Notes under the pieces: generated by a model | Databases searched by the model: none | Told to the model about the DNA's origin: nothing | What the model saw: only the letters and a program-made list of their open reading frames with translations | Made by a program: the position numbers and the translations under genes | Source of the DNA: Escherichia phage Baret | Reading direction: 5' to 3' (one strand) | Sequence record: OR896834.1 | DNA: 64,000 nt | Part shown: positions 11,787 to 40,259 of the stretch, piece after piece | How the letters are laid out: each line of letters starts with the position of its first letter | Position numbering within the stretch: position 1 is the stretch's first letter

Positions 11787-12029
11787 TTACGATTCCTTGA
11801 GCAAAGAAGCAAGTTCAGCATAGACTTTATCTAATTCAAAGCCGATGCGAAGAGACACGTTTGTTTTCCGTTGTTTAAGTAACCACTCGGATATGTTAGG
11901 GATGCCAGCTAATCTAGCAGGAACCACCCTACATAGCTTTTCCGAAGTATCGTAAACAGGAACTTTACGCTCTTTTACTGGGAACTTCCTTGTTTCCCAT
12001 TTTTTATTCTTCACTGTCATTTCTAGCAC
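11787..12029 (-). CDS. hypothetical protein (80 aa)
   Basis: Track ORF. Confidence 0.45.
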   Translation of the reverse strand: MLEMTVKNKKWETRKFPVKERKVPVYDTSEKLCRVVPARLAGIPNISEWLLKQRKTNVSLRIGFELDKVYAELASLLKES

Positions 12030-14793
12030 CTAGCTCTGCCATTGCTTCATCATGCATATGTTTCTCCTCATCAGGCATAAACTTATAAGGAATTGGCATA
12101 CACTCGATTTTACAATAGGTTCTGTACCAGTCTACAATATTTTCAGTGTTCATATCCTTACCAATACCCATCATACCAAGATACATTCTAGCATATTTTG
12201 GGTTAGCACTCTGACCTGTTTTAAGGAAGAAGTCCTTCTTCTTACCTTTCAGAGCTTCTATGAATGGTTTGATAGTGACGTTTGAACACTTCTTAATATC
12301 TTCCCAAAACATCTCGTGCATTTTATGGAAGAATGCCGCTCGATCATTAGGTTTATCCTTGATATATTGTTCAACATGCTCAACTGTTACATCTTTAATA
12401 GACTCAAGATGATAATAGCGAACAAGAAGTAGTTTAGCTTCATACGCATCCGCATGACGTGGAGCACAATAATCAGGAGTTGAATGTAGAATAGCTTTGA
12501 TTCGCTCTTCCATATATTCTTTCCCTGCACCTTCAATAGTTCCCCAGCTTTCGCTGAAAATATCAATAGTTGCACCCTGATCAAGCAAGTAATAACGTAA
12601 AGTACTAGTATAATTTCTAGATTCCAGCTCTCTACGACGTGCATATAATTGCTGTGCTAACTCCAGCCAGCCCTCATCAATATTATATTGTTCAGAACCT
12701 GCAGAGAATCCACTCGTAGATTTATCAATAAAATAATAGATATTCTGAGCACCACGGTCGCGCCTGATTGCTTGAAAACGCATGTTTGGCGCTTGGTTAC
12801 TGGTTCTAGTAATAACGAATACGTTATCAAAATAGTTGAAGTCAACCCCACTCGTTACGGATGGACTACATAATAAGCAATCAATTTGTTGATCAATCAG
12901 CTCATTAGTTGTGTAATCCAGAATACGTCTAATATCCACATCAGACGTAGAATTTGAGTGGATTTCCTTAACTAACGCACCCGTATTACGACGTAATGCC
13001 ATACCCTTCTCATTCAGCTCATCAGGGGCACAATCAGATACCAGAATAGATTTCTCACCCATCTCTAGAGAAGTCTGAAGTGCAACCCAAATACTGGATT
13101 CATCAGGAAACTCATAAGCATGAGCTTTTGACAGCATTTTACGGTGATGATTATAAAATGCAACCGGTTTATCAAACTCGATCAAAGAACCATATGCTTC
13201 AATTGTTTCTGCACTAATATCACCATCTGATAATATAATGATTTTTGCAGTTGCAAGAATATCCCGAAGAACCTGAATACATTCACGACGTTGTTTAACA
13301 ACCGGGGCGAATAGTAGGTCATTCATTACTGCATCACATTCATCTATAAAGATTGCATCAATTTGACCAATAAAACTCTTGAACTTATGCAAAGAGTGAA
13401 TAGTTGTGGACATACGGTCAATAGCACCACGCTTAAAATTAAGCATATCTACAGACTTATCATATTGTCCTGCACTAAATTTCTTAGCATTGGAAGATAC
13501 CAGTGCTCGAGTATTGGTAATTGCTAAGAAATTACCTTTAATAACTCTTGAATCTAACCAACGCACAACCGCTGTAGTTTTACCTGTACCTAGACTCGCT
13601 TTTACAAAAGTCATATAACCTTCTGGTGGCACAGTATTTAATTTCAAGAAGTTATCAGTCTCTAAAGAGTTAGTTTCTAGCTTTTTGAGTGGAATACCTT
13701 TTAAAACATCCGGTATATCACGTTTAGAATTATTAACAAATGCTTTTAGAGCCTGTTTACGACCATTATTAAAGTAGTCTTGAATATTACGACTATTATC
13801 TTTAGTTGCAATATATTCTGATAAGGCTGGACGGATTTCTTTTTCTAGCCATGCAAAATCAACACCATCCTCTAAAGCCCTGTGATAGAGTTTAGGAATA
13901 ATACGTAGATACACTCCATCCTCAGCTTCTTCTAGTTCGCTGATGGTTTCTTCTACTTTATCAGAGGCAGCTTTTTTACCCTTAATTTGGTCGAGTAAAG
14001 AGTAGAACTCTTCTTTAAACTCACCTCTAGTTGTTTCATAGTCAACCAGATTATTGGGTAAATTTACTTTAGAACCCTTAACAAATACCAGACGTGAAGC
14101 ACCCTCCGCTTTAAACGGATCTACTATACCATCGGTAAATAACGGATCTGCAAAATAATGGAGCTGTACGGAAGAGTAATAAGCTAAGTCGGCAATATCA
14201 AAGCCATACTTTTGTCTACTACTTTCGTTGATAGATGTAAATAAGAATTTGATTTGACCCTGAGTTACTTTAACATTAGATTCTAGTATTAAGTGCATTC
14301 GGATACCTGGTTTTAGCCCAGCCGAAGATGATGCATGAGCGATAAACCCTGCATCAAGAGGAAACATATCCTCACTAATACTATTTAACATTCTAATAAT
14401 ATGTCGAGCCATGCCAACAAGATCAAACTTGTTACAACCACCTGTATCTACAATACCATCCACGTCCATTGCAATTATATGACTTGGGTTAGATACATTA
14501 AAGTTGCCCTTCTTACGTCGCACATTATTTTTAGGTGCAAGACATCGACCTCGTACCGCAACGATATGAGGGTCAGACGTTAAACGTCTCATAAGAGGAA
14601 GCATTTCTACTAGGGTTTGAGGATCAACTTCGTCAATTACATCAAACTTGAAGGGCATTGAAGCTGGTTTACCTTCAGGATGCTTTGAGGAAAATCTTTT
14701 AGCAAAAAGATAATCTTCTGCTTTAACTTCTCGCCAATTGCCTGTGGCTAAATCGCGATGAAATCCTGCATGACCTTGTAGGATTGAAAACAC
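12004..14793 (-). CDS. large P-loop/SF2-type ATPase, replication origin-binding-protein-like
   Basis: Walker A FVKASLGTGKTT and DEAD-like IFIDECDAV; start set at GTG preceded by AGGAG (track TTG start at 14871 lacks RBS); start uncertain. Confidence 0.55.
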   Translation of the reverse strand: MFSILQGHAGFHRDLATGNWREVKAEDYLFAKRFSSKHPEGKPASMPFKFDVIDEVDPQTLVEMLPLMRRLTSDPHIVAVRGRCLAPKNNVRRKKGNFNVSNPSHIIAMDVDGIVDTGGCNKFDLVGMARHIIRMLNSISEDMFPLDAGFIAHASSSAGLKPGIRMHLILESNVKVTQGQIKFLFTSINESSRQKYGFDIADLAYYSSVQLHYFADPLFTDGIVDPFKAEGASRLVFVKGSKVNLPNNLVDYETTRGEFKEEFYSLLDQIKGKKAASDKVEETISELEEAEDGVYLRIIPKLYHRALEDGVDFAWLEKEIRPALSEYIATKDNSRNIQDYFNNGRKQALKAFVNNSKRDIPDVLKGIPLKKLETNSLETDNFLKLNTVPPEGYMTFVKASLGTGKTTAVVRWLDSRVIKGNFLAITNTRALVSSNAKKFSAGQYDKSVDMLNFKRGAIDRMSTTIHSLHKFKSFIGQIDAIFIDECDAVMNDLLFAPVVKQRRECIQVLRDILATAKIIILSDGDISAETIEAYGSLIEFDKPVAFYNHHRKMLSKAHAYEFPDESSIWVALQTSLEMGEKSILVSDCAPDELNEKGMALRRNTGALVKEIHSNSTSDVDIRRILDYTTNELIDQQIDCLLCSPSVTSGVDFNYFDNVFVITRTSNQAPNMRFQAIRRDRGAQNIYYFIDKSTSGFSAGSEQYNIDEGWLELAQQLYARRRELESRNYTSTLRYYLLDQGATIDIFSESWGTIEGAGKEYMEERIKAILHSTPDYCAPRHADAYEAKLLLVRYYHLESIKDVTVEHVEQYIKDKPNDRAAFFHKMHEMFWEDIKKCSNVTIKPFIEALKGKKKDFFLKTGQSANPKYARMYLGMMGIGKDMNTENIVDWYRTYCKIECMPIPYKFMPDEEKHMHDEAMAELGARNDSEE

Positions 14794-14894
14794 AACAATA
14801 CTCCTGTGTTGAAAATGAAATAAGTTTTCTTTAGGACTATTCAGAAAGAATAGAACAACTGTTACTGTCAATTTCTCAACAAATTAATCGCAAA

Positions 14895-15290
14895 TACTGA
14901 AGGGGGGTGGCAACTTCCCCTTTCACGCTACACTGCCGCTTCACTATACCGCACAAATCCTTGAGGATGGCCGCTAAGCCAGATTTGCTCACCTAATGCT
15001 TCATGTACTAGCTCATACTAGATGCAGTATACCTTACGTCATCACTTCTCAGAGTTTTTCACTCTTCCCGTCTCACTTCACAACCACCTCACACTAGGTT
15101 GCTTCGAGGCCTTACCAGGGTTCCTACGGGATGTAGATCGCTAAGTATTCTATTAACTATTTGTTTAAAAACTAACACGTAACAGTTAAAACAACCCTTA
15201 ATGGGGCAGCCTAACTGTTCCGTATCGCGGATTGTAAACAAGAAAAATTAGCAAAATCAATTTTTACTAATGTCTCTCAATTCAATATAA
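14895..15290 (-). other. ORF-free promoter-to-hairpin unit (candidate ~370-nt noncoding RNA or long leader)
   Basis: Promoter at 15293-15321 fires into ~400 nt with no ORF over 10 codons; GC hairpin AAGGGG...CCCCTT at about 14893-14918. Confidence 0.3.
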
Positions 15291-15292
15291 AT

Positions 15293-15321
15293 ATTATATC
15301 AAGATTTTGGGCATCCTGCAA
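15293..15321 (-). promoter_or_regulatory. sigma70 promoter (TTGCAG-17-TATAAT)
   Basis: Minus strand acttgcaggatgcccaaaatcttgatataatatttatattgaattgagag. Confidence 0.6.
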
Positions 15322-15363
15322 GTAAAATTTTCCGGATGGTGCTATCATTGGTCTTGAGTACGG

Positions 15364-15390
15364 ATAAAACCGAGCCAAAATGACTCGGTT
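15364..15390 (-). terminator. Rho-independent terminator
   Basis: CCGAG...CTCGG hairpin followed by TTTTAT on minus strand. Confidence 0.5.
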
Positions 15391-15397: not shown

Positions 15398-15595
15398 TTA
15401 GACGCTTAAAATACTTCTAATCTCTTCTATATACTTACCTACTTTTTTAGCATCTACTTTACTTAGTTTTCCTATATCAAAATCAGGATCAGTAAACATT
15501 CTAGCTATCTCTATCTCTAGAGACTTACTAATTTTCCCGGTAGTATTCCACTTAGAAATCTTACCTTTTATTTTCCAAAATTCCTTATTCATCAT
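15398..15595 (-). CDS. hypothetical protein (65 aa)
   Basis: Track ORF. Confidence 0.4.
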   Translation of the reverse strand: MMNKEFWKIKGKISKWNTTGKISKSLEIEIARMFTDPDFDIGKLSKVDAKKVGKYIEEIRSILSV

Positions 15596-15977
15596 TTAGG
15601 CCTGGAACATAAATCCCAACACGGTTTAATTGTTCTTTAGCTTCTTTGAGAATATCTGGAGTGTACTCCCAAATATCATCTTCTACCTGTAAAAGATGGG
15701 GCGAACAACCGTCATCAGGCACACGACATATGGCCAAACCACGTGGATGGAATATAGAGAAGTTTAGGGCAACAATTAAACCCATAGCAGACAATTCATT
15801 CCAATCCAATTCCCATTCCCTAGCGTAGCCTGATAGGAAAACACCAACACAGGGATCATCTATTTGCTGCTCTGGAAAAGTGAAGGAGGCTTGTCTTACC
15901 CCCAACCAACGTTGTAGCAGCTTCTCAGCACGCTTCACCAAACTAGGATCAATCTGACGCCAATATACTTGTTCCAT
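15585..15977 (-). CDS. hypothetical protein, tandem paralogue A
   Basis: Shares W-x-ELD-x-MGL-x-ALN...PGL pattern with adjacent ORF 15987-16415. Confidence 0.55.
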   Translation of the reverse strand: MEQVYWRQIDPSLVKRAEKLLQRWLGVRQASFTFPEQQIDDPCVGVFLSGYAREWELDWNELSAMGLIVALNFSIFHPRGLAICRVPDDGCSPHLLQVEDDIWEYTPDILKEAKEQLNRVGIYVPGLNDE

Positions 15978-15986
15978 TCTGCCTCC

Positions 15987-16415
15987 TTAAGCAGTTAAAC
16001 CTGGGATCATATACCCGAAATGGCGAAGTTTCTGAATCCCCTCATTCACTTCTTCCGGTGAGTAAGACCAACCATAACGTTCATTAACCTGAAAACCAGG
16101 AGATTCACTAGTTTTATAGTTAACAACTAGGCGATGCTTAGCAGGCATAAACAGCTTATAGTTTAACGCAAAAACTAAGCCCATTTCGTCTAACTCTTTC
16201 CAGCCCACAATCTCTTCAAGACCATCCTCTACCTGCACAATTAAACCAATACAGGGGGCCTCATCAATATCATCCTTAAAAGCAAAGGAGATTTCGTTAT
16301 TCTCACACCATATTTTCAAAGAGTTAATAGCCTCATTATACAGGCTAGCTGGGAGAGTACGCCAAAAGTTAACCAAAATTGGGTTAGCTTCTTTAGAGAA
16401 TACATTATTGAACAT
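15987..16415 (-). CDS. hypothetical protein, tandem paralogue B
   Basis: GWKELDEMGLVFALN...GYMIPGL aligns with the neighbour's WNELSAMGLIVALN...GIYVPGL. Confidence 0.55.
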   Translation of the reverse strand: MFNNVFSKEANPILVNFWRTLPASLYNEAINSLKIWCENNEISFAFKDDIDEAPCIGLIVQVEDGLEEIVGWKELDEMGLVFALNYKLFMPAKHRLVVNYKTSESPGFQVNERYGWSYSPEEVNEGIQKLRHFGYMIPGLTA

Positions 16416-18769: not shown

Positions 18770-20644
18770 TTACTTAGCTCGAATATCCTGATGCTTCACC
18801 CTGCCCATCACCTCGTGCTGTTTGCCAGGGTTAAATGGACGAGCACCCGGATTTCCAAGATACCCACAAACCCGACGAGTTACTTCAAGAGTTTCAGGGT
18901 CATGATTACCACAGATAGGGCACTTGAATCCATCTTCGGATGCTACTGTTTCACCTAAGAATCCACATTTACCACAAGAATCCACTGGAGTATTAATACC
19001 AAAGTAATGAACCTTACTAGCAGCATAATTAATAACCCATTCCAGTGCATCTGGGAATCGTTTCATATCCGGTAGTTCTACATAGGAAATGCACCCACCA
19101 GAAGCAATCGGAGTAAAGTTAGATTCATAATCAAATTTGACGTTAGGAGCAACTTTACGTTCCACATCAAGGTGGTGAGAGTTAGTGTAGTAACCTTTGG
19201 ACAGAATATCTTCATGCTCCGGGAAATATTCACGGTCTAGACGACAAAAGCGATCACATAGGGACTCTGATGGTGTAGCATACAGACTATAGCCTAACTG
19301 AGTCTCTTCCTTCTTCTGATCGACTCTATCTCGCATGTACTGCAATACACGCTGAACAAACTTGATGCAGGTCTCGGACATTGTATCTACATCTTTGCCA
19401 AACATGAACTGTAGCATTTCATGGCAACCAATATACCCTAGAGATACAGAAGCACGGTTATAGAAATGATCGAATACATATTCATCAGGCCCCAAGCGTA
19501 ACCCAAAGGCTCCTGACATATAGAGGATGGGTGCAGCTTTAGCTTGAATGTATTTTAAGCGATCAACTCTCCACTCCAACGCTTTTAATGCTGTATCCAC
19601 ACGTAGCTCAAGCAAATCAAAGAATAGATCAATATTTCCTTCAGCTTCGATAGCAATTCTAGGCAAGTTTACAGAAACAACACCTAAGTTATTACGACCG
19701 GCAGTTTCACCATCTTCTGTAGCAGCTAGGAATGAACGGCAGCCCATAGAAACTTTGTAGTCTCCAGTAACCTCTACAACTTTGTCATAGCTGATATAAT
19801 CTGGATACATACGTTCAGCAGTACATTTCATAGATAACTTCTTGATGTCATAATTAACATCTCCTGGTTTCATATTAACGCCATCACGAAGTACAAATAC
19901 CAGTTTCGGGAAGATAGCTGTACGTTTATTGATACCTAAACCATCCATGCGTACTTTCAGTATTGCCCTCTGTACTAGACGTGCTTCCCAAGAAGTTCCT
20001 AGACCAAAACCAAAGGTAATAAATGGGCTCTGACCATTAGAGTTGAACATGGTATTGATTTCATATTCTAAACCCTGACAAGCGTCATAGACTTCTTTTT
20101 CAGTCATCTCCGTAGCCATTACGGATGCTTTGGCTTCATCCTTAGTCCAACGTTTTGCAAACGCATGATTTTTATCATAGGATTTACGAACATAAGGTGC
20201 TAATACTTCATCAAGGCGATCTACAGAAGTACCACCATACTGATGGGAGCTAACTTGAGTGATAATCTGAGCAGTGATAGCCGCCGCAGTAGTGATAGAG
20301 TTTGGAGTGCTAATTTCAGCATTACCAACCTTCATACCATTCTTCAACATATCTTCCAGAGCTACCAGGCAACAGTTAGTCATGCCTAATGCAGCATAAT
20401 CAGCATCATGGAAATGAATATCCCCAATCATATGAGCATTTCGAATCTGAATTGGCATTTCTTCTAGAATCAGATACTTACTCAATTCACCTGCAAGCAT
20501 ATCCCTTTGTGTAGGGAAACGTTCTGAGGGTTTATTGGCATTATTAAACAGCAGCTCTTCATCTGCTGACCCTTCGATAATCTCTTTGCAGTTTCTAATT
20601 AACGCCTGCATTTCTTTATACTTTAGTTCTTCATTGCGATTCAT
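18770..20644 (-). CDS. nrdD: anaerobic ribonucleoside-triphosphate reductase (class III)
   Basis: C-terminal zinc ribbon CGKCG...CPICG and glycyl-radical motif RRVCGYLG; AGGAGAG RBS. Confidence 0.85.
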   Translation of the reverse strand: MNRNEELKYKEMQALIRNCKEIIEGSADEELLFNNANKPSERFPTQRDMLAGELSKYLILEEMPIQIRNAHMIGDIHFHDADYAALGMTNCCLVALEDMLKNGMKVGNAEISTPNSITTAAAITAQIITQVSSHQYGGTSVDRLDEVLAPYVRKSYDKNHAFAKRWTKDEAKASVMATEMTEKEVYDACQGLEYEINTMFNSNGQSPFITFGFGLGTSWEARLVQRAILKVRMDGLGINKRTAIFPKLVFVLRDGVNMKPGDVNYDIKKLSMKCTAERMYPDYISYDKVVEVTGDYKVSMGCRSFLAATEDGETAGRNNLGVVSVNLPRIAIEAEGNIDLFFDLLELRVDTALKALEWRVDRLKYIQAKAAPILYMSGAFGLRLGPDEYVFDHFYNRASVSLGYIGCHEMLQFMFGKDVDTMSETCIKFVQRVLQYMRDRVDQKKEETQLGYSLYATPSESLCDRFCRLDREYFPEHEDILSKGYYTNSHHLDVERKVAPNVKFDYESNFTPIASGGCISYVELPDMKRFPDALEWVINYAASKVHYFGINTPVDSCGKCGFLGETVASEDGFKCPICGNHDPETLEVTRRVCGYLGNPGARPFNPGKQHEVMGRVKHQDIRAK

Positions 20645-20673
20645 TATACTCTCCTTCTCTAACTAAGACTACT

Positions 20674-20702
20674 ATTATAACTCATTCGAGGGCGGATGTC
20701 AA
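20674..20702 (-). promoter_or_regulatory. sigma70 promoter (TTGACA-17-TATAAT) for nrdD
   Basis: Minus strand ttgacatccgccctcgaatgagttataat. Confidence 0.65.
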
Positions 20703-20753
20703 CAATATTTTACTATAAAGTTCTGTAACATGATCTGAGTCAAAAAATTTTAT

Positions 20754-20782
20754 TTGCCAATCTCTATTAAAAATTGTATAAT
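20754..20782 (+). promoter_or_regulatory. sigma70 promoter (TTGCCA-17-TATAAT)
   Basis: ttgccaatctctattaaaaattgtataat. Confidence 0.6.
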
Positions 20783-20894
20783 CACGCACTCGTACACGCG
20801 ATATAAAATGATTATCTAGTATCACACATCTCACGTTAAAAGCAAGCAAATTTTTTATTTAAATGCAATATCATAGGCTTATTTAAAATTGTAG

Positions 20895-20923
20895 TTGCTT
20901 TTTACTGTATATATTGGTATAAT
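20895..20923 (+). promoter_or_regulatory. sigma70 promoter (TTGCTT-17-TATAAT) for phoH-like gene
   Basis: ttgctttttactgtatatattggtataat. Confidence 0.65.
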
Positions 20924-20996
20924 ATATTTGTAAGTTGATAAACAAGATCTTTTTGTTGATCCTCTGTTAGCGAAGTACACTATAGGAGTGTTATTT

Positions 20997-21749
20997 ATGG
21001 GAAAAGCACGTCAAAAAAGAGAGAACCGCAATGGTTCAAGAAAGCGTGGCAACAAATATGAGAATAACGTAATTCAGGCTGATTTTTCTAATGATTACGC
21101 TAACCCAGTTGCTAAATCCCTAGTAGGTAAAAACCGCGAGCAAAAATCATATATCAATATGATCAAGAACAACACAGTGACTGTGGGTATCGGTGAGCCA
21201 GGTACTGGTAAAACCTTTATTCCGTCCGTTCTTGCAGCTCAGGAACTCGTAGACATTCACTCAGATATTGAGCAAGTGATTCTCGTACGTCCTAATGAAC
21301 CTCTAGGTAAGTCTCTTGGTATGCTTCCTGGTGATCTGGCGGAAAAGCTAGAGCCTTGGTTAGAGCCAATAGCTGATGGTATGAAATGGGCCATCGGCGA
21401 TCATGCCTATAAGGGATATGTCGAACGTCAGAAAATTAAATTTTTGGCTGTCGAACATGCTCGTGGCAGAACTTTCAACAACTCCTATGTAATTGTCGAT
21501 GAAGCTCAGAATATTTCCGTTGAGGCAATGATTTGTCTCCTAACTCGTGTAGGGCAAGACTGCCGTTTAATTATCTGTGGAGATATAGCTCAGAAAGACA
21601 TTAAAGGTGACTCAGGTCTAGCACTCCTTATGGAAGTCTATGAGAAATATGAAAATGCCCCATTCTCAATGATCGAATTGATTGATAACGTTCGTTCTGT
21701 TGAGTCTAAAGCATTCTATGATATTTTTAAAGATATGGGAAAGGTGTAA
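20997..21749 (+). CDS. phoH: PhoH-like ATPase
   Basis: Walker A GEPGTGKTF, Walker B VIVDEAQN; TAGGAG RBS 8 nt before ATG at 20997. Confidence 0.8.
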   Translation: MGKARQKRENRNGSRKRGNKYENNVIQADFSNDYANPVAKSLVGKNREQKSYINMIKNNTVTVGIGEPGTGKTFIPSVLAAQELVDIHSDIEQVILVRPNEPLGKSLGMLPGDLAEKLEPWLEPIADGMKWAIGDHAYKGYVERQKIKFLAVEHARGRTFNNSYVIVDEAQNISVEAMICLLTRVGQDCRLIICGDIAQKDIKGDSGLALLMEVYEKYENAPFSMIELIDNVRSVESKAFYDIFKDMGKV

Positions 21750-34091: not shown

Positions 34092-34166
34092 CGGGGTGTA
34101 GTCTAAGGGATAGGCAGGAGTCTTCTAAATTCCTTTATGCAGGTTCGAATCCTGTCACCTCGGCCA
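34092..34166 (+). tRNA. tRNA-Arg (anticodon UCU), CCA encoded
   Basis: Acceptor CGGGGTG/CACCTCG, D-stem GTCT/AGGC, anticodon loop CTTCTAA, T-loop TTCGAAT, 3' GCCA. Confidence 0.8.
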
Positions 34167-34200
34167 ATTTTATTAACTGTAACTAAAACAAAGGAAATAT

Positions 34201-35148
34201 ATGTTTAATACTAAAAATATGAAAGAACTAACTTCTGAGCAGAAAGTAATTCGTACTATTAAACGTTGGGGGATTGGTGCTGTAGTTGGTTTAGCAGGTT
34301 TAATCCTAGCTTTTAATTCATATACTATTGTTTCTGATGGTACGGTTAAAACCCAAACATTTCTTGGTAAAGTAGATCCTAACCCAGTATTACCTGGTTT
34401 CCATCCTGTAAACCCATTTGCATCTTTCGATACTTTTAGTACAAAAGATATTGCTGTAAAATTAGATAAACTTCAGGTTCCTAGCCAGGATAAGTTTAAA
34501 TCCACTGTTGACCTGACTGTTATGTTGCAGTTTGATGGTTCTAAGGCACCGATTAACCGTATTAATGCAGGTACTCAGGATCAAGCATTAGACAAATATG
34601 TAACTGAAAAATTACTGTCTACTATTCGTGAGTTTGGTAAGTCTGTACCTAAAGCACAAGATTTATTTGATGCTAAAATTCAGGCTCAATTGCAAACTGC
34701 AATTCAACAGGAAGTTGAAGAGTATGCACGCCCATATGGCTACACAGTTAAGCAGGTGTTTCTTCAGGATATTACTTTGCCACCAGTAATCATGGAACAG
34801 GTACAGAATACCAAAGTTCGTGAAGAGCAAGTTAATGCTGCAAAAGCTGAACTGGCTCGCGTTGAACAAGAAGCTCAGCAGAAAGTTAAACAAGCAGAAG
34901 CAGACCGTGAAGCTCGTAATAACCAAGCTATTGCTAACGAACGCGACGCAGATGCTAAACTGTATGCAGCTAAGAAAGAAGCTGAAGCTAACGCCGCGCT
35001 GCAACGTACCATTACTCCTGAGATGATTCGCTGGAAGCAACTAGAAGTTGAAATGATTCGTGCTCAGAAGTATCAAGGTGGTGTACCGCAGACTGTGGTT
35101 GGCACTGGTTACGATGGCCAGATGATTATGGATATGCGTAATAAGTAA
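34201..35148 (+). CDS. SPFH/band-7 domain membrane protein (HflC/prohibitin-like)
   Basis: N-terminal TM helix IGAVVGLAGLILAF; SPFH-like core; C-terminal Ala/Glu/Gln-rich coiled coil. Confidence 0.55.
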   Translation: MFNTKNMKELTSEQKVIRTIKRWGIGAVVGLAGLILAFNSYTIVSDGTVKTQTFLGKVDPNPVLPGFHPVNPFASFDTFSTKDIAVKLDKLQVPSQDKFKSTVDLTVMLQFDGSKAPINRINAGTQDQALDKYVTEKLLSTIREFGKSVPKAQDLFDAKIQAQLQTAIQQEVEEYARPYGYTVKQVFLQDITLPPVIMEQVQNTKVREEQVNAAKAELARVEQEAQQKVKQAEADREARNNQAIANERDADAKLYAAKKEAEANAALQRTITPEMIRWKQLEVEMIRAQKYQGGVPQTVVGTGYDGQMIMDMRNK

Positions 35149-35171
35149 TATCCACGCGTAATATTCGAAGT

Positions 35172-35206
35172 AAGCCCTGTGTTTCCTGGAGAGCGCAGGG
35201 CTTTTC
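35172..35206 (+). terminator. Rho-independent terminator
   Basis: AGCCCTG...CAGGGCT hairpin followed by TTTTCTG. Confidence 0.6.
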
Positions 35207-35245
35207 TGTATAATGTATTTATACAACTAACTAGGGGATCAAATA

Positions 35246-35764
35246 ATGACTGTTGATGAACTAACAGAACATCTCTTATCTAGAGGGTTTGATACAGATA
35301 AATATCACTGCTGGCTAAGCCCAGAAGGATGGCTAACAGTCCCATTGTATGACTTCTCTGGGATGTTGAGAGGCTATCAGACTTATAATCCTTCTGCTCC
35401 AAAAGGTCATGGTAAATGCCCCTTTGAAGCTAGATATTTTACTTATTCTACTACACAGTGTGTATGGGGACTAGAAACTCTCAATGGAGACGAAAAAGTA
35501 GTATTGATTGCTGAATCTGTATTTAAGGCAGTTGCGTTACATAACGCTGGTTATCCAGCCCTGGCAATGTTGGGTTCTTCCCCCGGAAAAGCGTTGTTAA
35601 AGCAATTGAAATTACTACCTTTTAAATTGGTAGCTGTTGGGGATAATGATCCTGCTGGTGAAAAATTTGCTAGACAATTAAATGGATTTGTTTCTCCTGT
35701 AGATGTGGATGAGATGTCTACCGAAAACTTGAAAAATTTTCTTGCTATGAAGCTAAATTTCTAA
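35246..35764 (+). CDS. TOPRIM-domain protein (172 aa)
   Basis: VVLIAESVFKAV (E) ... LVAVGDNDPAGEKFA (DxD) fits TOPRIM; promoter TTGCTA embedded in its 3' end. Confidence 0.5.
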   Translation: MTVDELTEHLLSRGFDTDKYHCWLSPEGWLTVPLYDFSGMLRGYQTYNPSAPKGHGKCPFEARYFTYSTTQCVWGLETLNGDEKVVLIAESVFKAVALHNAGYPALAMLGSSPGKALLKQLKLLPFKLVAVGDNDPAGEKFARQLNGFVSPVDVDEMSTENLKNFLAMKLNF

Positions 35765-35770
35765 TATAAT
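35742..35770 (+). promoter_or_regulatory. sigma70 promoter (TTGCTA-17-TATAAT) for tRNA transcription unit
   Basis: ttgctatgaagctaaatttctaatataat. Confidence 0.6.
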
Positions 35771-35784
35771 ATATTTATAAATTC

Positions 35785-35873
35785 GGAAGAATAGCATAAC
35801 GGTATTGCAGCAGATTGCTAATCTGTCGGTTTGAAATATAGCCTTGTGGGTTCGATTCCCACTTCTTCCGCCA
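35785..35873 (+). tRNA. tRNA-Ser (anticodon GCU), type II, CCA encoded
   Basis: Acceptor GGAAGAA/TTCTTCC, anticodon arm GCAGA-TTGCTAA-TCTGT, long variable arm, T-arm GTGGG-TTCGATT-CCCAC. Confidence 0.8.
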
Positions 35874-35879
35874 AATTCT

Positions 35880-35957
35880 GGTTCTCAAGCTCATATGGTA
35901 TGAGCACCCGGCTCATAACCGGAAGGTACGTAGGTTCGAATCCTCGGGGAGCCACCA
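35880..35957 (+). tRNA. tRNA with CAU anticodon (Met/Ile2-type), CCA encoded
   Basis: Acceptor GGTTCTC/GGGAGCC, D-arm GCTC...GAGC, anticodon loop CTCATAA; T-stem has mismatches. Confidence 0.5.
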
Positions 35958-35977
35958 ACTTAATTAGGGGATTACAA

Positions 35978-36166
35978 GTGGAATTATACATAGTTTATGT
36001 TGTGTTTATTCAAGATAGAGAATACCCTGATGAATATAAAAAAGGATATAGGTTAGCCAGAGCTACTTCTGAAGCCCAAGCTATGGATAAAGTGGCAGAT
36101 TATATGCTTACAGTAGAAAACGTACACTACATCGACTACCTTGAAGCCTCAAAAGTAATTGACTAA
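35978..36166 (+). CDS. hypothetical protein (62 aa, GTG start)
   Basis: Track ORF trimmed to exclude tRNAs; GTG after AGGGGA. Confidence 0.35.
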   Translation: MELYIVYVVFIQDREYPDEYKKGYRLARATSEAQAMDKVADYMLTVENVHYIDYLEASKVID

Positions 36167-36173
36167 ACTACAC

Positions 36174-36250
36174 GGGGGTGTAATCGAATTGGCATAGGTA
36201 CTGGACTTAAAATTCAGGTTTTGTGGGTTCGAATCCCACCACCCCTACCA
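36174..36250 (+). tRNA. tRNA with UAA anticodon (Leu by anticodon), type I length, CCA encoded
   Basis: Acceptor GGGGGTG/CACCCCT, anticodon arm CTGGA-CTTAAAA-TTCAG, T-arm GTGGG-TTCGAAT-CCCAC; D region GAATTGGCATA lacks a clear stem. Confidence 0.55.
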
Positions 36251-36265
36251 AATTAAGGAAATAAG

Positions 36266-36433
36266 ATGTATAGACACCCACCTCCGCCAACACGTCGTTC
36301 TAGAGAAGTTATCCTCATGGAATTGACTAAAAACTTCAAGGCAACTCTTGAGGATAGAGATTTAGGCACGGATGAAGACATTGATTTTATTTGTAGACTA
36401 TTAAAGATGAAACTGGAGAAACAACATGGCTAA
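36266..36433 (+). CDS. hypothetical micro-protein (55 aa), not in ORF track
   Basis: ATG after AAGGAA RBS; overlaps next ORF start. Confidence 0.35.
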   Translation: MYRHPPPPTRRSREVILMELTKNFKATLEDRDLGTDEDIDFICRLLKMKLEKQHG

Positions 36434-36632
36434 TCCTGAAATTACCATGCAACGATTCATGGCTAAAGGCATGATAGCTGAGGCAGGCATTGAACAAGAA
36501 GTAAAAAGTTATTACGAACAGATTAAGGGTATTGTAGACTCGGCTAAAAACACCGGAGAAAAAGAACATGGTGCGGCAATTATGGCTATAACTCTTATTA
36601 GTCTAGACTTGGCCGAAGAATCTGGAGTTTAG
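36426..36632 (+). CDS. hypothetical protein (68 aa)
   Basis: Track ORF, GGAG RBS. Confidence 0.45.
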   Translation: MANPEITMQRFMAKGMIAEAGIEQEVKSYYEQIKGIVDSAKNTGEKEHGAAIMAITLISLDLAEESGV

Positions 36633-36662
36633 CTCCTCCAAACAGAATTTTTAAAAATGTAC

Positions 36663-36692
36663 TTGCCTTTTGCCTTAAATTTCTGATATAAT
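36663..36692 (+). promoter_or_regulatory. sigma70 promoter (TTGCCT-18-TATAAT)
   Basis: acttgccttttgccttaaatttctgatataat. Confidence 0.6.
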
Positions 36693-36722
36693 AATTATAT
36701 AAATTGATGGAGGAGTTAACGA

Positions 36723-36998
36723 ATGCAAAATCGTGTTGTAGCAACTGGTATTGAAAGTGCAATCTGTAAATCCTGGGAAGGCTGGGAAGGTGAGATTGAA
36801 TGGCTTTATTTCTATGATGTAGAACTTCTACCGGAAGTTAAAGCTAAATGTATTGAAGCTGGCATGGCTCCAGATGCAAAAGCTGATATTGATATTTTAA
36901 TGTCTGAACTTAAAGGTCGTGTAGTTACCGTTAGTAATGAGGGCGAAGAAGTTTTCGAACTTCCATTTTCCTTAACTGTCACTCCTAAGTTCGACTAA
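36723..36998 (+). CDS. hypothetical protein (91 aa)
   Basis: Track ORF, GGAGGAG RBS. Confidence 0.5.
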   Translation: MQNRVVATGIESAICKSWEGWEGEIEWLYFYDVELLPEVKAKCIEAGMAPDAKADIDILMSELKGRVVTVSNEGEEVFELPFSLTVTPKFD

Positions 36999-37006
36999 CT
37001 AATACA

Positions 37007-37045
37007 GCACTGAGCAAGTTCTTTAAAATTTGACTTGCTCAGTGC
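37007..37045. repeat. 12-bp perfect inverted repeat enclosing the -35 of the next promoter
   Basis: GCACTGAGCAAG (37007-18) and CTTGCTCAGTGC (37034-45). Confidence 0.6.
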
Positions 37046-37063
37046 CTTAAAACTTGATATAAT
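37035..37063 (+). promoter_or_regulatory. sigma70 promoter (TTGCTC-17-TATAAT) for tRNA unit
   Basis: ttgctcagtgccttaaaacttgatataat. Confidence 0.6.
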
Positions 37064-37079
37064 AGTTATCTAATTCGGA

Positions 37080-37129
37080 AACATATTTAAAAGTGTTTAA
37101 ACTAGTATTTGAATACTTTTAAATATGTT
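37080..37129. repeat. 15-bp perfect inverted repeat (leader hairpin) abutting tRNA-Tyr 5' end
   Basis: AACATATTTAAAAGT (37080-94) and ACTTTTAAATATGTT (37115-29), 20-nt spacer containing GTTTAAAC. Confidence 0.7.
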
Positions 37130-37217
37130 GGATTAGTATCGTAGAGGTAGCGAAGCAGACTGTAAATCTGCCGACTCGGAAGGGTCTCGGGTGGTTCGAC
37201 TCCATCATCCAACACCA
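37127..37217 (+). tRNA. tRNA-Tyr (anticodon GUA), type II, CCA encoded
   Basis: Acceptor GTTGGAT/ATCCAAC, anticodon arm GCAGA-CTGTAAA-TCTGC, long variable arm, T-arm GGTGG-TTCGACT-CCATC. Confidence 0.8.
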
Positions 37218-37224
37218 AATTTAA

Positions 37225-37301
37225 GTCCTGTTAGACAAACTGGTAAAGTCACTACCCTTTCAAGGTAGGGTTTGCGGGTTCGATCCCCGCACAGGACGCC
37301 A
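37225..37301 (+). tRNA. tRNA-Glu (anticodon UUC), CCA encoded
   Basis: Acceptor GTCCTGT/ACAGGAC, anticodon arm CTACC-CTTTCAA-GGTAG, T-arm GCGGG-TTCGATC-CCCGC. Confidence 0.8.
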
Positions 37302-37310
37302 ATTAATAAT

Positions 37311-37381
37311 TGGGGTACGCATAGGTTGCAAATGGGCCTCCAAAACCCATGAAAAGGTTTCGAATACCTTTACCCCTGCCA
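37311..37381 (+). tRNA. tRNA, probable Trp (anticodon CCA), CCA encoded
   Basis: T-arm AAGGT-TTCGAAT-ACCTT, acceptor TGGGGTA/TACCCCT (1:72 mismatch), anticodon loop CTCCAAA with 4-bp stem. Confidence 0.45.
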
Positions 37382-37387
37382 AAATTT

Positions 37388-37462
37388 GCACCTTTAGCTG
37401 AGATGGATTAGCGCTTGCCTGAAGAGCTTGAGAGGTTCGTTCGATACGAACAGGGTGCACCA
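37388..37462 (+). tRNA. tRNA, possibly Phe (anticodon GAA), CCA encoded
   Basis: Acceptor GCACCTT/AGGGTGC, D-arm GCT...AGC, T-arm GTTCG-TTCGATA-CGAAC; loop CTGAAGA but anticodon stem has U-U mismatches. Confidence 0.45.
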
Positions 37463-37478
37463 AATTGAAGGAGATGCT

Positions 37479-37749
37479 GATGCATCCTGAAAACTTCTTT
37501 ATTTACTGCGCGGATAAGTTGCTGAAACGTAGAATTAACAAAGTCTATCATTATCGTGTTAGTCAACAGCCTTATGTATACGCTTTTGACGGTGATCACA
37601 TTTCATTAGAACAATTATCTTGTGATTACATGATATTGAAGAACTTTGACGAGACGAAGATCTCAAGCGTTCACAATCGACAGAATCCATTAACGTGGAA
37701 ATATAAGAAAAAGAAAGGCATCAAATTCTTAAAAAATGTAGTTGCTTAG
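37479..37749 (+). CDS. hypothetical protein (90 aa)
   Basis: ATG 6 nt after AAGGAG; track start adjusted. Confidence 0.45.
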
Positions 37750-37770
37750 TTTCCAAAAGTTCTGTATAAT
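37742..37770 (+). promoter_or_regulatory. sigma70 promoter (TTGCTT-17-TATAAT)
   Basis: ttgcttagtttccaaaagttctgtataat. Confidence 0.6.
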
Positions 37771-37799
37771 AAATACATAAATTGAACTGGAGAAGCAAC

Positions 37800-38018
37800 A
37801 TGACAGAACAAGAATTGAATGAACGTAAGCTAGTAATGCTTCGCTTACTAAATATTTTCTCTGGTATGGACGGTGGTGGTGATTTCTTAAGACTTAAGGT
37901 ATTTACAGAAACTGCCGAAGGTGATGCAATCTCTAGAGTTATTAGGAACATGGGAAGCCTGCTAGATGTGGCTGGAGTAGCTACTCAATACACCTTAGAT
38001 AATCCTACTGGAGAATAA
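37800..38018 (+). CDS. hypothetical protein (72 aa)
   Basis: ATG after GGAGAAG RBS. Confidence 0.45.
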   Translation: MTEQELNERKLVMLRLLNIFSGMDGGGDFLRLKVFTETAEGDAISRVIRNMGSLLDVAGVATQYTLDNPTGE

Positions 38019-38210
38019 ATGAGAAGATTAGTTAGATTTAAGTGTTGTAGTTCTGAACATATTTTCACACATCTTCGTGAATTTAAAATGTGTGATTGTG
38101 GTAAATCAGGCTATGACTCTGGAAATGGGTTCTACACCCGTACTCTAGGGAACTTCAATGATTTAGAATTTGAAGATCTCGAAAAACAAGATAAACCGAC
38201 CGTTGGCTGA
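38019..38210 (+). CDS. hypothetical Cys-rich micro-protein (63 aa)
   Basis: C-C...C-x-C pattern; start overlaps upstream stop. Confidence 0.4.
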   Translation: MRRLVRFKCCSSEHIFTHLREFKMCDCGKSGYDSGNGFYTRTLGNFNDLEFEDLEKQDKPTVG

Positions 38211-38272
38211 ATGGCTTAGGCGAAGGATTGCAAATCCTTTTTATGTGAGTTCAAATCTCATGCGGTCGTCCA
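38197..38272 (+). tRNA. tRNA-Cys (anticodon GCA), CCA encoded
   Basis: Acceptor CGACCGT/GCGGTCG, anticodon arm AAGGA-TTGCAAA-TCCTT, T-arm GTGAG-TTCAAAT-CTCAT. Confidence 0.75.
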
Positions 38273-38293
38273 AATTACTAAAGGAAAGAAGTA

Positions 38294-38812
38294 GTGCATA
38301 CAAAAGTTTTTGATAGTTTGGTAAAGAAAGGCGTTGTTACTAACGAGCCCTTCTATATAACCGCAGAACTAATCCAGAGATTTATGGAAGAATATATAAA
38401 TCTTTCAGGAACCAATGGTAATACCAAAAAGAATACAAATACTATGTATTCGAGAAAACTTGCTGCACTTTCCTTTATAAAGTTTAAGCAGGAAAATAAA
38501 CTTCCTATTTCTGAAGGTTTTGTATACTGTATTAGTAATCCTGCATGGAAAAATCAGTATAAAATAGGTATGAGTCAAAATCCAAAAGAGAGATTAGCTC
38601 AATATCAGACTTATTCCCCTTATAGGGATTATAAGTTAGAGCATTGGTCTTTTTGGTTTGACAAACGAAAAGGTGAAAAACTAATTCACCAGTATTTCAA
38701 AGATTTAAAAGAACATGAGTGGTTTAGTATAAATTCTAGGGATCTTAGTAAATATCTAGAACGTATTAACTCTAGTTCTGACTTATATGGTTCCTTAGCT
38801 CTAATTGGTTAG
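38294..38812 (+). CDS. T5orf172/GIY-YIG-like domain protein (172 aa, GTG start)
   Basis: GFVYCISNPAWKNQYKIGMSQNPKERLAQYQT matches the T5orf172 (MUG113) signature; 3' end overlaps tRNA-Asn by ~24 nt. Confidence 0.55.
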   Translation: MHTKVFDSLVKKGVVTNEPFYITAELIQRFMEEYINLSGTNGNTKKNTNTMYSRKLAALSFIKFKQENKLPISEGFVYCISNPAWKNQYKIGMSQNPKERLAQYQTYSPYRDYKLEHWSFWFDKRKGEKLIHQYFKDLKEHEWFSINSRDLSKYLERINSSSDLYGSLALIG

Positions 38813-38866
38813 AGCGGCATCTTGTTAAGTTGAGGGTTGCTGGTTCGAATCCAACAGGAACCGCCA
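38789..38866 (+). tRNA. tRNA-Asn (anticodon GUU), CCA encoded
   Basis: Acceptor GGTTCCT/AGGAACC, D-arm GCTC...GAGC, anticodon loop TTGTTAA (stem with mismatches), T-loop TTCGAAT. Confidence 0.6.
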
Positions 38867-38968
38867 AATTCTGTGTAGAGTTAAGTAAACCGGTAGCCAA
38901 CCAGCTATCATTGCTGACATCGAATTCAGCCATAGATACCATTTTCGTTAATAACTGAGGAAACAAGC

Positions 38969-39154: not shown

Positions 39155-39163
39155 ATGAATTAT

Positions 39164-39240: not shown

Positions 39241-39257
39241 AATAAGGTAGGTTAGCT

Positions 39258-39416: not shown

Positions 39417-39417
39417 T

Positions 39418-39493: not shown

Positions 39494-39519
39494 AATTAAA
39501 CTAGCACGAGAAATATGCT

Positions 39520-39867: not shown

Positions 39868-39869
39868 CA

Positions 39870-40250: not shown

Positions 40251-40259
40251 AAAATTCAT

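What the first reader, a model, noticed from the sequence alone, without database searches (positions are those of the whole stretch)
14880..15330. ORF-free promoter-to-hairpin unit upstream of the origin-binding-like ATPase
A well-formed promoter (15293-15321, minus) fires into ~400 nt with no ORF longer than a few codons, ending near a GC hairpin (AAGGGG...CCCCTT, ~14893-14918) just upstream of the 929-aa ATPase gene. Either a very long structured leader or an independent small RNA; being next to a putative origin-binding protein it could also be origin or primer-RNA related.
Basis: partly seen in the sequence, partly recalled or inferred. Interest (0 to 1): 0.6.

Follow-up and report, generated by a model that had tools for sequence, protein, structure and literature searches.

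The report
Large folded RNA before replication gene
The 493 bases between an early promoter and the replication-helicase gene of this T5-like phage do not code for protein but fold into a large, evolutionarily conserved RNA that matches no catalogued RNA family and whose job is unknown.

Summary
The window is a T5-like phage (Tequintavirus). The promoter, the non-coding stretch and the GC hairpin are all real. The hairpin is not an end point. It is one internal branch (P7) of a much larger fold.

The predicted 493-nt leader of the D2 (herpes UL9-like) helicase mRNA forms about 14 helices:
- a 5' hairpin (E0);
- a sequence-conserved hairpin (P0);
- a 30-39 bp long-range helix (P1) closing a roughly 260-nt multi-branched core (P2-P7);
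- a small hairpin (P8) ahead of the ribosome-binding site.

RNAalifold recovered the same architecture independently in two sequence types. I traced it by hand in T5, Epseptimavirus, Klebsiella and Pectobacterium relatives. Compensatory changes are abundant: 28 pairs against 5.7±1.8 in shuffles. Wobble pairs mark the transcribed strand. The small ORFs show no sign of coding.

The P1-enclosed core is only 57% identical between the window and T5, while the D2 gene is 86% identical.

Rfam 15 gave no match, and no paper found describes this RNA.

Function is inferred, not shown. Most likely it is a cis-acting, probably RNase III-processed leader or RNA platform. The rivals are a replication pre-primer or origin RNA, or a trans-acting RNA.

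The parts
15366..15388 (-). Intrinsic terminator of the upstream unit (CCGAGUCAUUUUGGCUCGGUUUU). It marks the 5' boundary of the locus.
   Evidence: Sequence. The homologous site is annotated as a terminator in T5 NC_005859.
15293..15321 (-). Early promoter: -35 TTGCAG (15321-15316), 17-bp spacer, TGn-extended -10 TATAAT (15298-15293). The predicted start is A 15286.
   Evidence: Annotated as a promoter in T5 and conserved in distant relatives. The start site is predicted by analogy with T5 early promoters (own knowledge), not measured.
15240..15278 (-). E0: 5'-terminal hairpin of the transcript (GAGAGAC AUUAGUAAAA ... UUUUGCUAAU U UUUCUU).
   Evidence: Predicted by MFE folding in window, Klebsiella and Pectobacterium leaders with different sequences. 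Coordinates.
15191..15235 (-). P0: irregular hairpin carrying the most conserved sequence motif, GAUACGGAACAGUUAGGCUGCCCCAU (15226-15201).
   Evidence: RNAalifold (columns 12-56). The closing stem covaries (GCAU/AUGC in L029, GUAU/AUAC in L051). The motif occurs once per T5-like genome in IMG/VR.
15143..15189 (-). P1 5' arm of the long-range helix.
   Evidence: Pairs with 14898-14856: 39 bp including 7 G.U, dG -33.9 against -11.5±2.9 for shuffled arms. Predicted independently in both sequence types.
14856..14898 (-). P1 3' arm of the long-range helix. A candidate RNase III site (inference).
   Evidence: Among window-type sequences, eight of the nine variable P1 pairs differ on one side only and still pair through wobble; one pair is broken in one sequence.
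15131..15141 (-). P2 5' strand (GCG..CUACAU). It pairs with 14933-14925 (GUGUAG CGU).
   Evidence: Two A-U to G-C double changes within the window type (pairs 111-316 and 113-314). Different sequences in 7 lineages.
15067..15130 (-). P3 domain: P3 (CCCGU/ACGGG), P3a hairpin (15119-15110), P3b hairpin (15101-15081, loop UAGUGUGAGGU).
   Evidence: P3 covaries (CCCAU/AUGGG, UUCGU/GCGAA). P3b covaries (CAAUC/GAUUG, CGGCA/UGCCG, CUAUC/GAUAG).
15043..15065 (-). P4 hairpin (AGAGU GAAAA ACUCU), followed by the conserved single-stranded GAGAAGUG.
   Evidence: Compensatory GGAGU/ACUCC. GGUC/GACC, AGGG/CCCU and CCG/CGG in other lineages.
14945..15031 (-). P4a three-way junction: P4a (UAUAC 15031-15027 / GUAUA 14949-14945), P4b (15024-15002), and P5-P6 (14988-14953) with the invariant hexaloop UUAGCG (14977-14972).
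   Evidence: All 7 P5 pairs show changes on both sides across 11 sequences. P6 variants: GGC/GCC, GAC/GUC, AGC/GCU.
14900..14922 (-). It is an internal branch, not a terminator.
   Evidence: Compensatory GUGG/CCAC (pair 327-343). Five of 7 pairs covary across lineages. No terminator call.
14837..14853 (-). P8: small hairpin directly after P1 (CUAUUC UUUCU GAAUAG).
   Evidence: invariant within tequintaviruses. A hairpin of different sequence sits at the same place in Klebsiella and Pectobacterium leaders.
12004..14805 (-). Shine-Dalgarno AGGAG (14805-14801), GTG start 14793 and the 929-aa D2 helicase gene (UL9-like 'replication origin binding').
   Evidence: Pfam Herpes_ori_bp. The cloning primer for T5 D2 in PMC3632103 matches the T5 start of this gene.

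Best explanation
Shown:
- The region is the predicted 493-nt 5' leader of the early D2 helicase mRNA. It is under selection to fold, as RNA on the transcribed (window minus) strand, into a conserved structure of about 14 helices.
- The elements are E0, P0, a 30-39 bp long-range helix P1 closing a roughly 260-nt multi-junction core (P2, P3/3a/3b, P4, P4a/4b, P5/P6, P7), then P8 and the ribosome-binding site.
- It is a new RNA family confined, in the collections searched, to T5-like phages.

Inferred mechanism:
- The leader acts in cis on D2 expression.
- P1 is long enough to be an RNase III substrate. Cleavage there would cut the core out of the transcript and leave a D2 mRNA with a short leader that starts just before P8.
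- The conserved unpaired motifs would form a binding platform for a phage or host factor that sets how much D2 is made. These motifs are the P0 motif, GAGAAGUG and the UUAGCG hexaloop.
- Whether the excised core also has a function of its own is open.
For: - **Same architecture found twice.** RNAalifold predicts it independently in 16 window-type and 15 T5-type leaders.
- **Covariation in the T5-type set.** 28 pairs changed on both sides against 5.7±1.8 in shuffles (0 of 500 shuffles reached this) and 1-6 when partners are slid. 98.6% of cells are paired, against 35-52% when slid.
- **Covariation across genera.** In the hand alignment of P5/P6/P7, 14 of 17 pairs changed on both sides.
- **Conserved order.** Eleven helices occur in the same order, with different sequences, in 11 representative leaders.
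- **P1 in every lineage.** 30-39 bp in 10 of the 11 representatives (21 bp and not above shuffled in the metagenome contig L050), far below shuffled energies in most lineages (the Klebsiella margin is small).
- **Strand.** Sense MFE is -134.1 and antisense -110.4 kcal/mol. There are 7 G.U pairs in P1. Eight of the nine variable P1 pairs within the window type still pair through wobble.
- **Not coding**.
- **Fixed position.** The motif-1-to-start-codon distance is 423-449 nt in all lineages. The promoter is conserved and there is no terminator between the RNA and D2.
- **Flanks are constrained.** The leader flanks are 98-100% identical between the window and T5, more than the D2 coding sequence at 86%.
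- **RNase III inference.** It rests on the known need of E. coli RNase III for about 20 bp or more of dsRNA (established knowledge).
Against: - No transcript data: the start site, read-through into D2 and any cleavage are all predicted.
- No expression platform was found. There is no terminator or antiterminator, and the Shine-Dalgarno sequence is not sequestered by the conserved helices.
- A core of about 260 nt with many junctions is far more elaborate than processing or a simple translational operator needs.
- The core is only 57% identical between close relatives and loses some loop motifs in the T5 type. That is odd for a binding platform with a fixed partner.
- Many of the double changes come from a few lineages (phiR2-01 and the L025 clade), so the number of independent events is smaller than the cell counts.
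- Alignment A4 was fitted by hand to the structure.
Confidence: 0.45

Rival explanations
1. Replication origin or pre-primer RNA. Transcription from the early promoter through this region activates the central T5 origin. The folded transcript forms an R-loop or is processed into a primer, as with ColE1 RNA II or T4 oriF/oriG, and D2 is loaded there. The divergent cores would be origin-specificity modules.
For: - It lies immediately upstream of the UL9-like initiator-type helicase.
- The T5 homologue lies at 59.0-59.5 kb of 121.75 kb. A preprint states that T5 origins were mapped near the centre of the molecule (10.1101/866236).
- It has a strong conserved promoter and AT-rich P1 arms.
- The 5' leader is more conserved than the neighbouring genes.
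- D2 has a variable patch (aa 361-400, 57% identity) that differs between core types.
- T5 encodes an RNase H (PMC3632103).
Against: - No direct repeats or iterons were found.
- The 12-bp inverted repeat in the conserved part is not kept in other lineages.
- The cumulative GC-skew minimum is at about 20-21 kb of the window, 5-6 kb away. A similar offset was reported for phiLLS (PMC5519627).
- No antisense promoter was found.
- The selection signal is on RNA pairing, not on DNA boxes.
- Origin mapping by electron microscopy is coarse.
Confidence: 0.2
2. Trans-acting stable RNA. The P1-enclosed core is the real product. It would be excised from the D2 leader and act elsewhere, for example as a scaffold of a ribonucleoprotein, a sponge for a host factor or an anti-defence decoy. 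On this view its link to D2 is only co-expression.
For: - The design is a structured domain pinched off by a long stem, like stable RNAs cut from precursors (established knowledge).
- The core behaves as a discrete evolutionary cassette whose boundaries lie inside P1. The base of P1 and the flanks are conserved, while the rest is 57% identical between types.
- The window core is closer to that of Pectobacterium phage DU_PP_V (64%) than to that of T5 (57%). This suggests exchange or fast divergence, as seen for arms-race elements.
- It has complex junctions and conserved loops.
Against: - The position and the spacing to the D2 start are invariant in every lineage, which fits a cis role better.
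- No second copy or free-standing copy exists anywhere.
- No partner or target has been identified.
- No evidence exists for a discrete RNA.
Confidence: 0.2
3. A riboswitch-like sensor. The core binds a metabolite, such as a nucleotide or a signalling molecule, and tunes D2 expression.
For: - 5' UTR location.
- Multi-junction fold with conserved unpaired nucleotides.
- A possible alternative pairing of the P0 motif with the P1 5' arm, 11 of 12 bases (I4).
Against: - No match to any Rfam riboswitch, even at E<10.
- No terminator or SD-sequestering platform.
- The alternative pairing is not conserved in most T5-type or Pectobacterium leaders.
- Aptamer cores are normally highly conserved, whereas this core is 57% identical between close relatives.
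Confidence: 0.07
4. Not an RNA element. Either the small ORFs (33, 50 and 38 aa) are real genes, or the inverted repeats act at the DNA level as a cruciform, a MITE-like insertion or a protein-binding palindrome.
For: - One GenBank relative annotates the three ORFs as hypothetical proteins.
- The P1 arms are a large inverted repeat at the DNA level (I1 and I9).
Against: - The ORFs start with TTG or GTG.
- Nearly all substitutions in them are non-synonymous. Stops and frames are not kept among near-identical phages, and no ORF is conserved across lineages.
- Helices keep pairing through G.U, which would be A.C mismatches on the other strand: 45 G.U and 0 A.C in the listed helices. The fold is 24 kcal/mol weaker on the antisense strand.
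- The element is single-copy.
Confidence: 0.03

Closest known systems
RNase III processing stems (E. coli rRNA operon stems flanking 16S/23S, T7 early mRNA sites, lambda N leader)
   Same: A long-range or long double-stranded stem of 20 bp or more, formed by sequences flanking a structured RNA or lying in an mRNA leader. Here it is 30-39 bp and AU-rich with G.U pairs.
   Different: Cleavage here is untested. The enclosed domain is a phage-specific RNA of unknown function, and there is no sequence similarity to the known sites.
ColE1 RNA II pre-primer, and the transcription-activated phage origins (T4 oriF/oriG, T7 primary origin)
   Same: A strong promoter firing through a non-coding region next to replication functions. 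For RNA II, also a several-hundred-nucleotide transcript whose fold matters.
   Different: No antisense RNA promoter, no identified hybrid-forming tract, no evidence of origin activity, and a GC-skew switch 5-6 kb away.
Large ornate bacterial and phage RNAs (GOLLD, ROOL, OLE, raiA; e.g. PMC12286853)
   Same: Large, multi-junction, covariation-supported RNAs of unknown biochemical function, some of them phage-encoded.
   Different: No cmscan match. This one is smaller (about 330-490 nt), always sits in the 5' UTR of one gene, and is restricted to T5-like phages.
Translational operators of phage replication genes (T4 gene 32, gene 43, regA targets)
   Same: An RNA element in the leader of a replication-protein mRNA that could bind its own product.
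   Different: Those operators are tens of nucleotides long, whereas this is a 14-helix fold. No binding data exist.
Processed immunity RNAs with allelic specificity (P1/P7 c4, P4 CI)
   Same: A structured RNA matured from a longer transcript, with closely related phages carrying divergent alleles that keep the fold.
   Different: T5-like phages are strictly lytic. No complementary target sites were found and no processing has been shown.

Membership tests
Any curated RNA family (Rfam 15: riboswitches, ribozymes, 6S, RNase P, tmRNA, introns, GOLLD/ROOL etc.) | Covariance-model match at or near the family's gathering score | tested here: not met
   The best hit in the region is a C/D-box snoRNA model at 17.4 bits, against a gathering score of 36. 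Ten diverse relatives gave nothing relevant at E<=1. ARAGORN found no tmRNA or tRNA in the region.
Independent sRNA gene (promoter-to-terminator unit) | Own promoter | tested here: met
   Conserved extended -10 promoter at 15321-15293.
Independent sRNA gene (promoter-to-terminator unit) | Intrinsic terminator (GC hairpin plus U tract) at the 3' end | tested here: not met
   No terminator-like site between 15286 and 14794. The GC hairpin P7 is enclosed by P1.
Riboswitch | Expression platform (terminator/antiterminator or SD sequestration) coupled to the aptamer | tested here: not met
   No terminator. The SD is not paired with conserved elements. The candidate alternative pairing is not conserved.
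Riboswitch | Ligand binding | not testable with these tools
   Needs in-line probing, ITC or reporter assays.
RNase III processing site | About 20 bp or more of mostly continuous dsRNA | tested here: met
   P1 is 30-39 bp in ten of 11 representative leaders (21 bp in the metagenome contig L050).
RNase III processing site | Cleavage in vivo or in vitro | not testable with these tools
   Needs a Northern blot or 5'/3'-end mapping in rnc+ and rnc- hosts.
Initiator-box or iteron origin (lambda O/ori, HSV UL9/oriS type) | Repeated initiator-binding boxes flanking an AT-rich unwinding element | tested here: not met
   Only two chance-level direct repeats of 9-10 nt. The inverted repeats present are the RNA helices themselves.
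Initiator-box or iteron origin (lambda O/ori, HSV UL9/oriS type) | Coincidence with a mapped or skew-predicted origin | tested here: inconclusive
   The locus is near the genome centre, where origins are reported (position). The GC-skew minimum is at about 20-21 kb of the window.
ColE1-type pre-primer RNA | Antisense regulator RNA, a persistent RNA-DNA hybrid, and RNase H cleavage at the origin | tested here: inconclusive
   No plus-strand promoter-like site lies inside the leader. Hybrid formation and cleavage cannot be tested here.
Small protein-coding genes | ORF conserved in frame and length, with an excess of synonymous change | tested here: not met
   nearly all changes are non-synonymous, stops are lost or shifted, and no ORF is shared between lineages.
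MITE or other mobile inverted-repeat element | Several copies per genome or in other contexts | tested here: not met
   One copy per genome. The bacterial-genome hits to the motif are at chance level and lack the 3' domain.

The most novel reading that the evidence does not exclude
The folded transcript is part of the long-sought central replication origin of T5. It would be an RNA-structure-dependent, transcription-coupled origin in which the P1-enclosed core is a pre-primer or loading platform recognised by the UL9-like D2 helicase. The two divergent core types would then be origin-specificity alleles that keep co-infecting T5-like phages from using each other's initiator.
Probability: 0.15. 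Interest if true: 0.9.

Novelty: new variant of a known kind. Interest (0 to 1): 0.7.

Why it matters
T5 is a classic model phage, yet how its replication starts and how its initiator-type helicase D2 is controlled are still unknown.

A large, covariation-supported RNA sits exactly between a conserved early promoter and D2, near the genome centre where origins were reported. This gives a concrete, testable handle on both questions.

It also adds a new family to the short list of large structured RNAs in bacteria and phages. It shows an unusual evolutionary pattern: a fold-preserving core of about 300 nt that is nearly unalignable between phages whose flanking genes are 86-98% identical.

Annotation pipelines currently place spurious 'hypothetical proteins' on it.

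Tried and rejected
- **Known RNA families.** Rfam at permissive thresholds on the window region and on ten relatives gave nothing.
- **tRNA and tmRNA.** The scan found nothing in the region.
- **Terminator.** None was found, so the promoter-to-terminator sRNA reading was dropped.
- **Small ORFs.** Rejected as coding.
- **Iterons.** No direct repeats were found.
- **Possible switch.** The P0 motif can pair with the P1 5' arm, but this is not conserved.
- **Model R1 of the 3' domain.** It found one site in the window and all close genera. It gave only a weak hit in a Providencia phage. It found nothing in Proteus, Vibrio or Aeromonas phages, so homology of their long upstream gaps is unproven.
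- **Metagenome scan.** It added few new variants.
- **Bacterial genome scan with the P0 motif.** It gave 15 hits, about the chance expectation, and none has the 3' domain.
- **Failed computations.** MAFFT Q-INS-i was unavailable. A brute-force long-range duplex scan timed out and was replaced by the repeat finder.
- **Tertiary contacts.** Kissing-loop or pseudoknot ideas (P3b loop with P7 loop) were examined by eye and were not consistent across lineages.
- **RNase P resemblance.** The ACAGAAC..CCGGCU and GGUAAGG resemblances were treated as chance, because cmscan gave no RNase P hit.
- **Literature.** Seven full-text searches found no description of this RNA. The 1976 origin-mapping paper is not held.

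Full report
**Identity of the window and the locus.**
The region matches T5-like phages. A Salmonella Tequintavirus is 99.6% identical, and 525 GenBank phage records have a match. The downstream 929-aa gene (GTG 14793 to 12004, minus strand) carries the Pfam Herpes_ori_bp domain. It is the homologue of T5.108, annotated 'replication origin binding'. The cloning primer used by Wong et al. for the T5 'D2' bipolar helicase matches the start of this T5 gene (PMC3632103; T5 sequence). T5 has the same layout: an annotated terminator, an annotated promoter, then about 470 nt without a gene before T5.108.

**Check of the observation.**
- The promoter is real. It has TTGCAG, a 17-bp spacer and TATAAT, with a TG extension and an A/T-rich upstream tract.
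- It is conserved as CTTGCa-N17-TATAAT plus the downstream TTGAGAG motif in Klebsiella, Pectobacterium and Providencia relatives.
- The simple scanner missed it, because the -35 matches the consensus at only 3 of 6 positions.
- By analogy with T5 early promoters (own knowledge), transcription should start at A 15286. This gives a 493-nt leader.
- The GC hairpin is at 14922-14900.
- Two details of the finding are wrong. Mechanical ORFs of 33, 50 and 38 aa exist. The hairpin is not the end of anything.

**The sequence is not coding.**
The ORFs start with TTG or GTG. Among near-identical phages almost every substitution changes the amino acid. Stop codons and frames are not maintained. No ORF is shared in position or frame with T5, Epseptimavirus, Klebsiella or Pectobacterium leaders. 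One GenBank record nevertheless annotates them as hypothetical proteins.

**It is a folded RNA.**
I collected 50 related loci from IMG/VR, metagenomes and GenBank. The leaders fall into a 'window type' and a 'T5 type', plus more distant versions.

RNAalifold was run separately on 16 window-type and 15 T5-type leaders. It returned the same architecture both times:
- P0, a hairpin with the motif GAUACGGAACAGUUAGGCUGCCCCAU.
- P1, a long-range helix whose arms lie about 245 nt apart.
- Inside P1: P2, then P3 with P3a and P3b, then P4 followed by GAGAAGUG.
- A three-way junction P4a/P4b/P5, with the 3-bp hairpin P6 and its invariant UUAGCG loop.
- P8 follows P1.
- E0, a 5' hairpin, appears in single-sequence folds of several lineages.

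**Covariation.**
- Within the very similar window type, five pairs show compensatory double changes, in P2 (two pairs), P3, P4 and P7. In P1, eight of the nine variable pairs differ on one side only and keep pairing through G.U wobble, and one pair is broken in one sequence.
- In the T5-type set, 28 of 142 pairs changed on both sides. Shuffles gave 5.7±1.8 (0 of 500 reached 28), and slid partners gave 1-6. 98.6% of cells are paired, against 35-52% when slid.
- Across 11 representative leaders I located all eleven helices in the same order with different sequences. The set comprises three window-type leaders, T5, an Epseptimavirus-like clade, phiR2-01, two Klebsiella phages, Pectobacterium DU_PP_V and My1, and a metagenome contig. 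There were 45 G.U and no A.C oppositions. The strands were chosen by me, so the paired fraction is not an independent test. The diversity of the sequences is the evidence.
- A hand-built alignment of P5/P6/P7 gave 14 of 17 pairs with changes on both sides. It is fitted to the structure, and N marks padding.
- P1 is 30-39 bp with dG of -27 to -38 kcal/mol in ten of the 11 representatives. In the metagenome contig L050 the best arm duplex is only 21 bp at -11.3 kcal/mol, about one standard deviation below its shuffles. Shuffled arms give about -10 to -16. The margin is small for the two Klebsiella leaders, where the best shuffle matched or came close to the real arms.
- Caveat: many of the double changes trace to a few lineages, so independent events are fewer than the cell counts.

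**Strand.**
The sense strand folds 24 kcal/mol better than the antisense strand, -134.1 against -110.4. The helices are rich in G.U pairs, which would be A.C mismatches on the other strand. Selection therefore acts on the minus-strand transcript, in the direction of the promoter.

**Evolutionary pattern.**
- The distance from the P0 motif to the start codon is 423-449 nt in all lineages.
- Between the window and T5, the first 108 nt or so of the leader are 98-100% identical and the last 75 nt are 89% identical.
- The P1-enclosed core is only 57% identical, or 24-52% per 50-nt bin. D2 itself is 86% identical.
- The window's core is closer to that of Pectobacterium phage DU_PP_V (64%) than to that of T5 (phage identity).
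- The core therefore behaves as an exchangeable or fast-diverging cassette whose boundaries lie within P1.

**Distribution.**
- The P0 motif occurs exactly once per T5-like genome in IMG/VR.
- A covariance model of the 3' domain finds one site in the 64-kb window (E about 4e-12) and all of the Tequintavirus, Epseptimavirus, Klebsiella and Pectobacterium leaders searched. It gives a weak hit in a Providencia phage. It finds nothing in Proteus, Vibrio or Aeromonas phages.
- The Providencia leader still has a UUAGCG hairpin inside a long-range inverted repeat.
- Vibrio JSF12 and Aeromonas TS3 have gaps of about 1 kb or more without annotation upstream of their homologous genes. Their homology is unproven.
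- Motif hits in bacterial genomes are at the chance level and lack the 3' domain.

**What it is not.**
- No Rfam family matches.
- There is no tmRNA or tRNA.
- There is no intrinsic terminator.
- There are no iterons.
- No plus-strand promoter lies in the leader.
- The window's cumulative GC-skew minimum lies at about 20-21 kb, where gene orientation switches. That is 5-6 kb from the leader. A T5-like genome paper reports a similar offset (PMC5519627).

**Mechanism (inferred).**
The fixed position, the conserved promoter, the absence of a terminator and the constrained flanks point to a cis-acting leader of D2. P1 is long enough for RNase III, which needs about 20 bp of dsRNA (established knowledge). 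Cleavage would excise the core and leave a short-leader D2 mRNA that begins near P8. The conserved unpaired motifs suggest a bound factor.

I put this at 0.45. The rivals are:
- an origin or pre-primer RNA, at 0.2. It is helped by the position at about 48.5% of the T5 genome and by the statement that origins map near the centre (10.1101/866236);
- a trans-acting excised RNA, at 0.2;
- a metabolite sensor, at 0.07;
- a non-RNA reading, at 0.03.

**Comparison with known systems and novelty.**
The helix-enclosed design resembles RNase III processing stems. The setting resembles transcription-activated origins and ColE1 RNA II. The size and complexity recall large ornate RNAs. None of these memberships is met where it could be tested. 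No paper among seven full-text searches describes the RNA. I rate it a new family within the known kind 'structured leader or non-coding RNA', with an unusual hypervariable but fold-preserving core.

Public RNA-seq of a Tequintavirus exists and could settle the transcript question (PMC13250531).

Noticed in passing
L011, L024, L033 and L042 (phiR2-01), about 100 nt between E0 and P0; corresponds to window ~15240: Some leaders of both core types carry an extra insertion of about 100 nt (AGTGAAGCTGACAAGGGATTTACGGCGAGAG...GAAAAAG) right after E0. It is flanked by TTTTTCTT on both sides and contains its own hairpin (UUUACGG...CCGUAAA). It may be an optional RNA module or a small insertion.
   Followed up: partly
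window 15398-15595 (-): A 65-aa ORF between the DUF7415 gene and the terminator is absent from T5, where the alignment shows a gap of about 170 nt. This is an indel polymorphism just upstream of the leader.
   Followed up: no
window ~20000-21000: The cumulative GC-skew minimum of the window coincides with the switch from minus-strand to plus-strand genes. It is the skew-predicted 'origin', 5-6 kb from the D2 leader.
   Followed up: no
window 15212-15223 and 15177-15188: The P0 motif ACGGAACAGUUA is complementary at 11 of 12 bases to the start of the P1 5' arm, UAACUGUUACGU. This is a possible co-transcriptional or alternative pairing. It is not conserved in most T5-type, DU_PP_V or My1 leaders.
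   Followed up: partly
window 15139-15145 and 14972-14978: The heptamer CUUAGCG occurs twice in the window-type RNA: at the P1/P2 junction and in the P6 loop. The first copy is UUAAGUG in T5.
   Followed up: no
window 14668-14683 versus 15311-15326: A 16-nt near-copy (88%) of the promoter's -35 region lies in inverted orientation inside the D2 coding sequence. This is probably chance (I2).
   Followed up: no
L038 (Vibrio phage JSF12) 1-1041; L041 (Aeromonas phage TS3) 1-1308: Distant Demerecviridae have unannotated, relatively GC-rich stretches of about 1 kb or more upstream of their origin-binding-protein genes. The two Vibrio leaders share motifs such as GUGACUAACC and ACGUAGAGA. These may be analogous large RNAs, but model R1 did not detect them.
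   Followed up: partly
D2 protein aa 361-400 (window ~13594-13713): A locally variable patch just before the Walker A motif is 57% identical between the window and T5, while most of the protein is 90-100% identical. It differs between phages with different RNA core types.
   Followed up: no
window 15585-16415 (-): Two tandem paralogous genes of 130 and 142 aa, each with a DUF7415 domain, lie upstream of the leader. Sir2-like genes lie further upstream in T5.
   Followed up: no
window 34092-43971 (+): A cluster of 22 tRNA genes, typical of T5-like phages.
   Followed up: no
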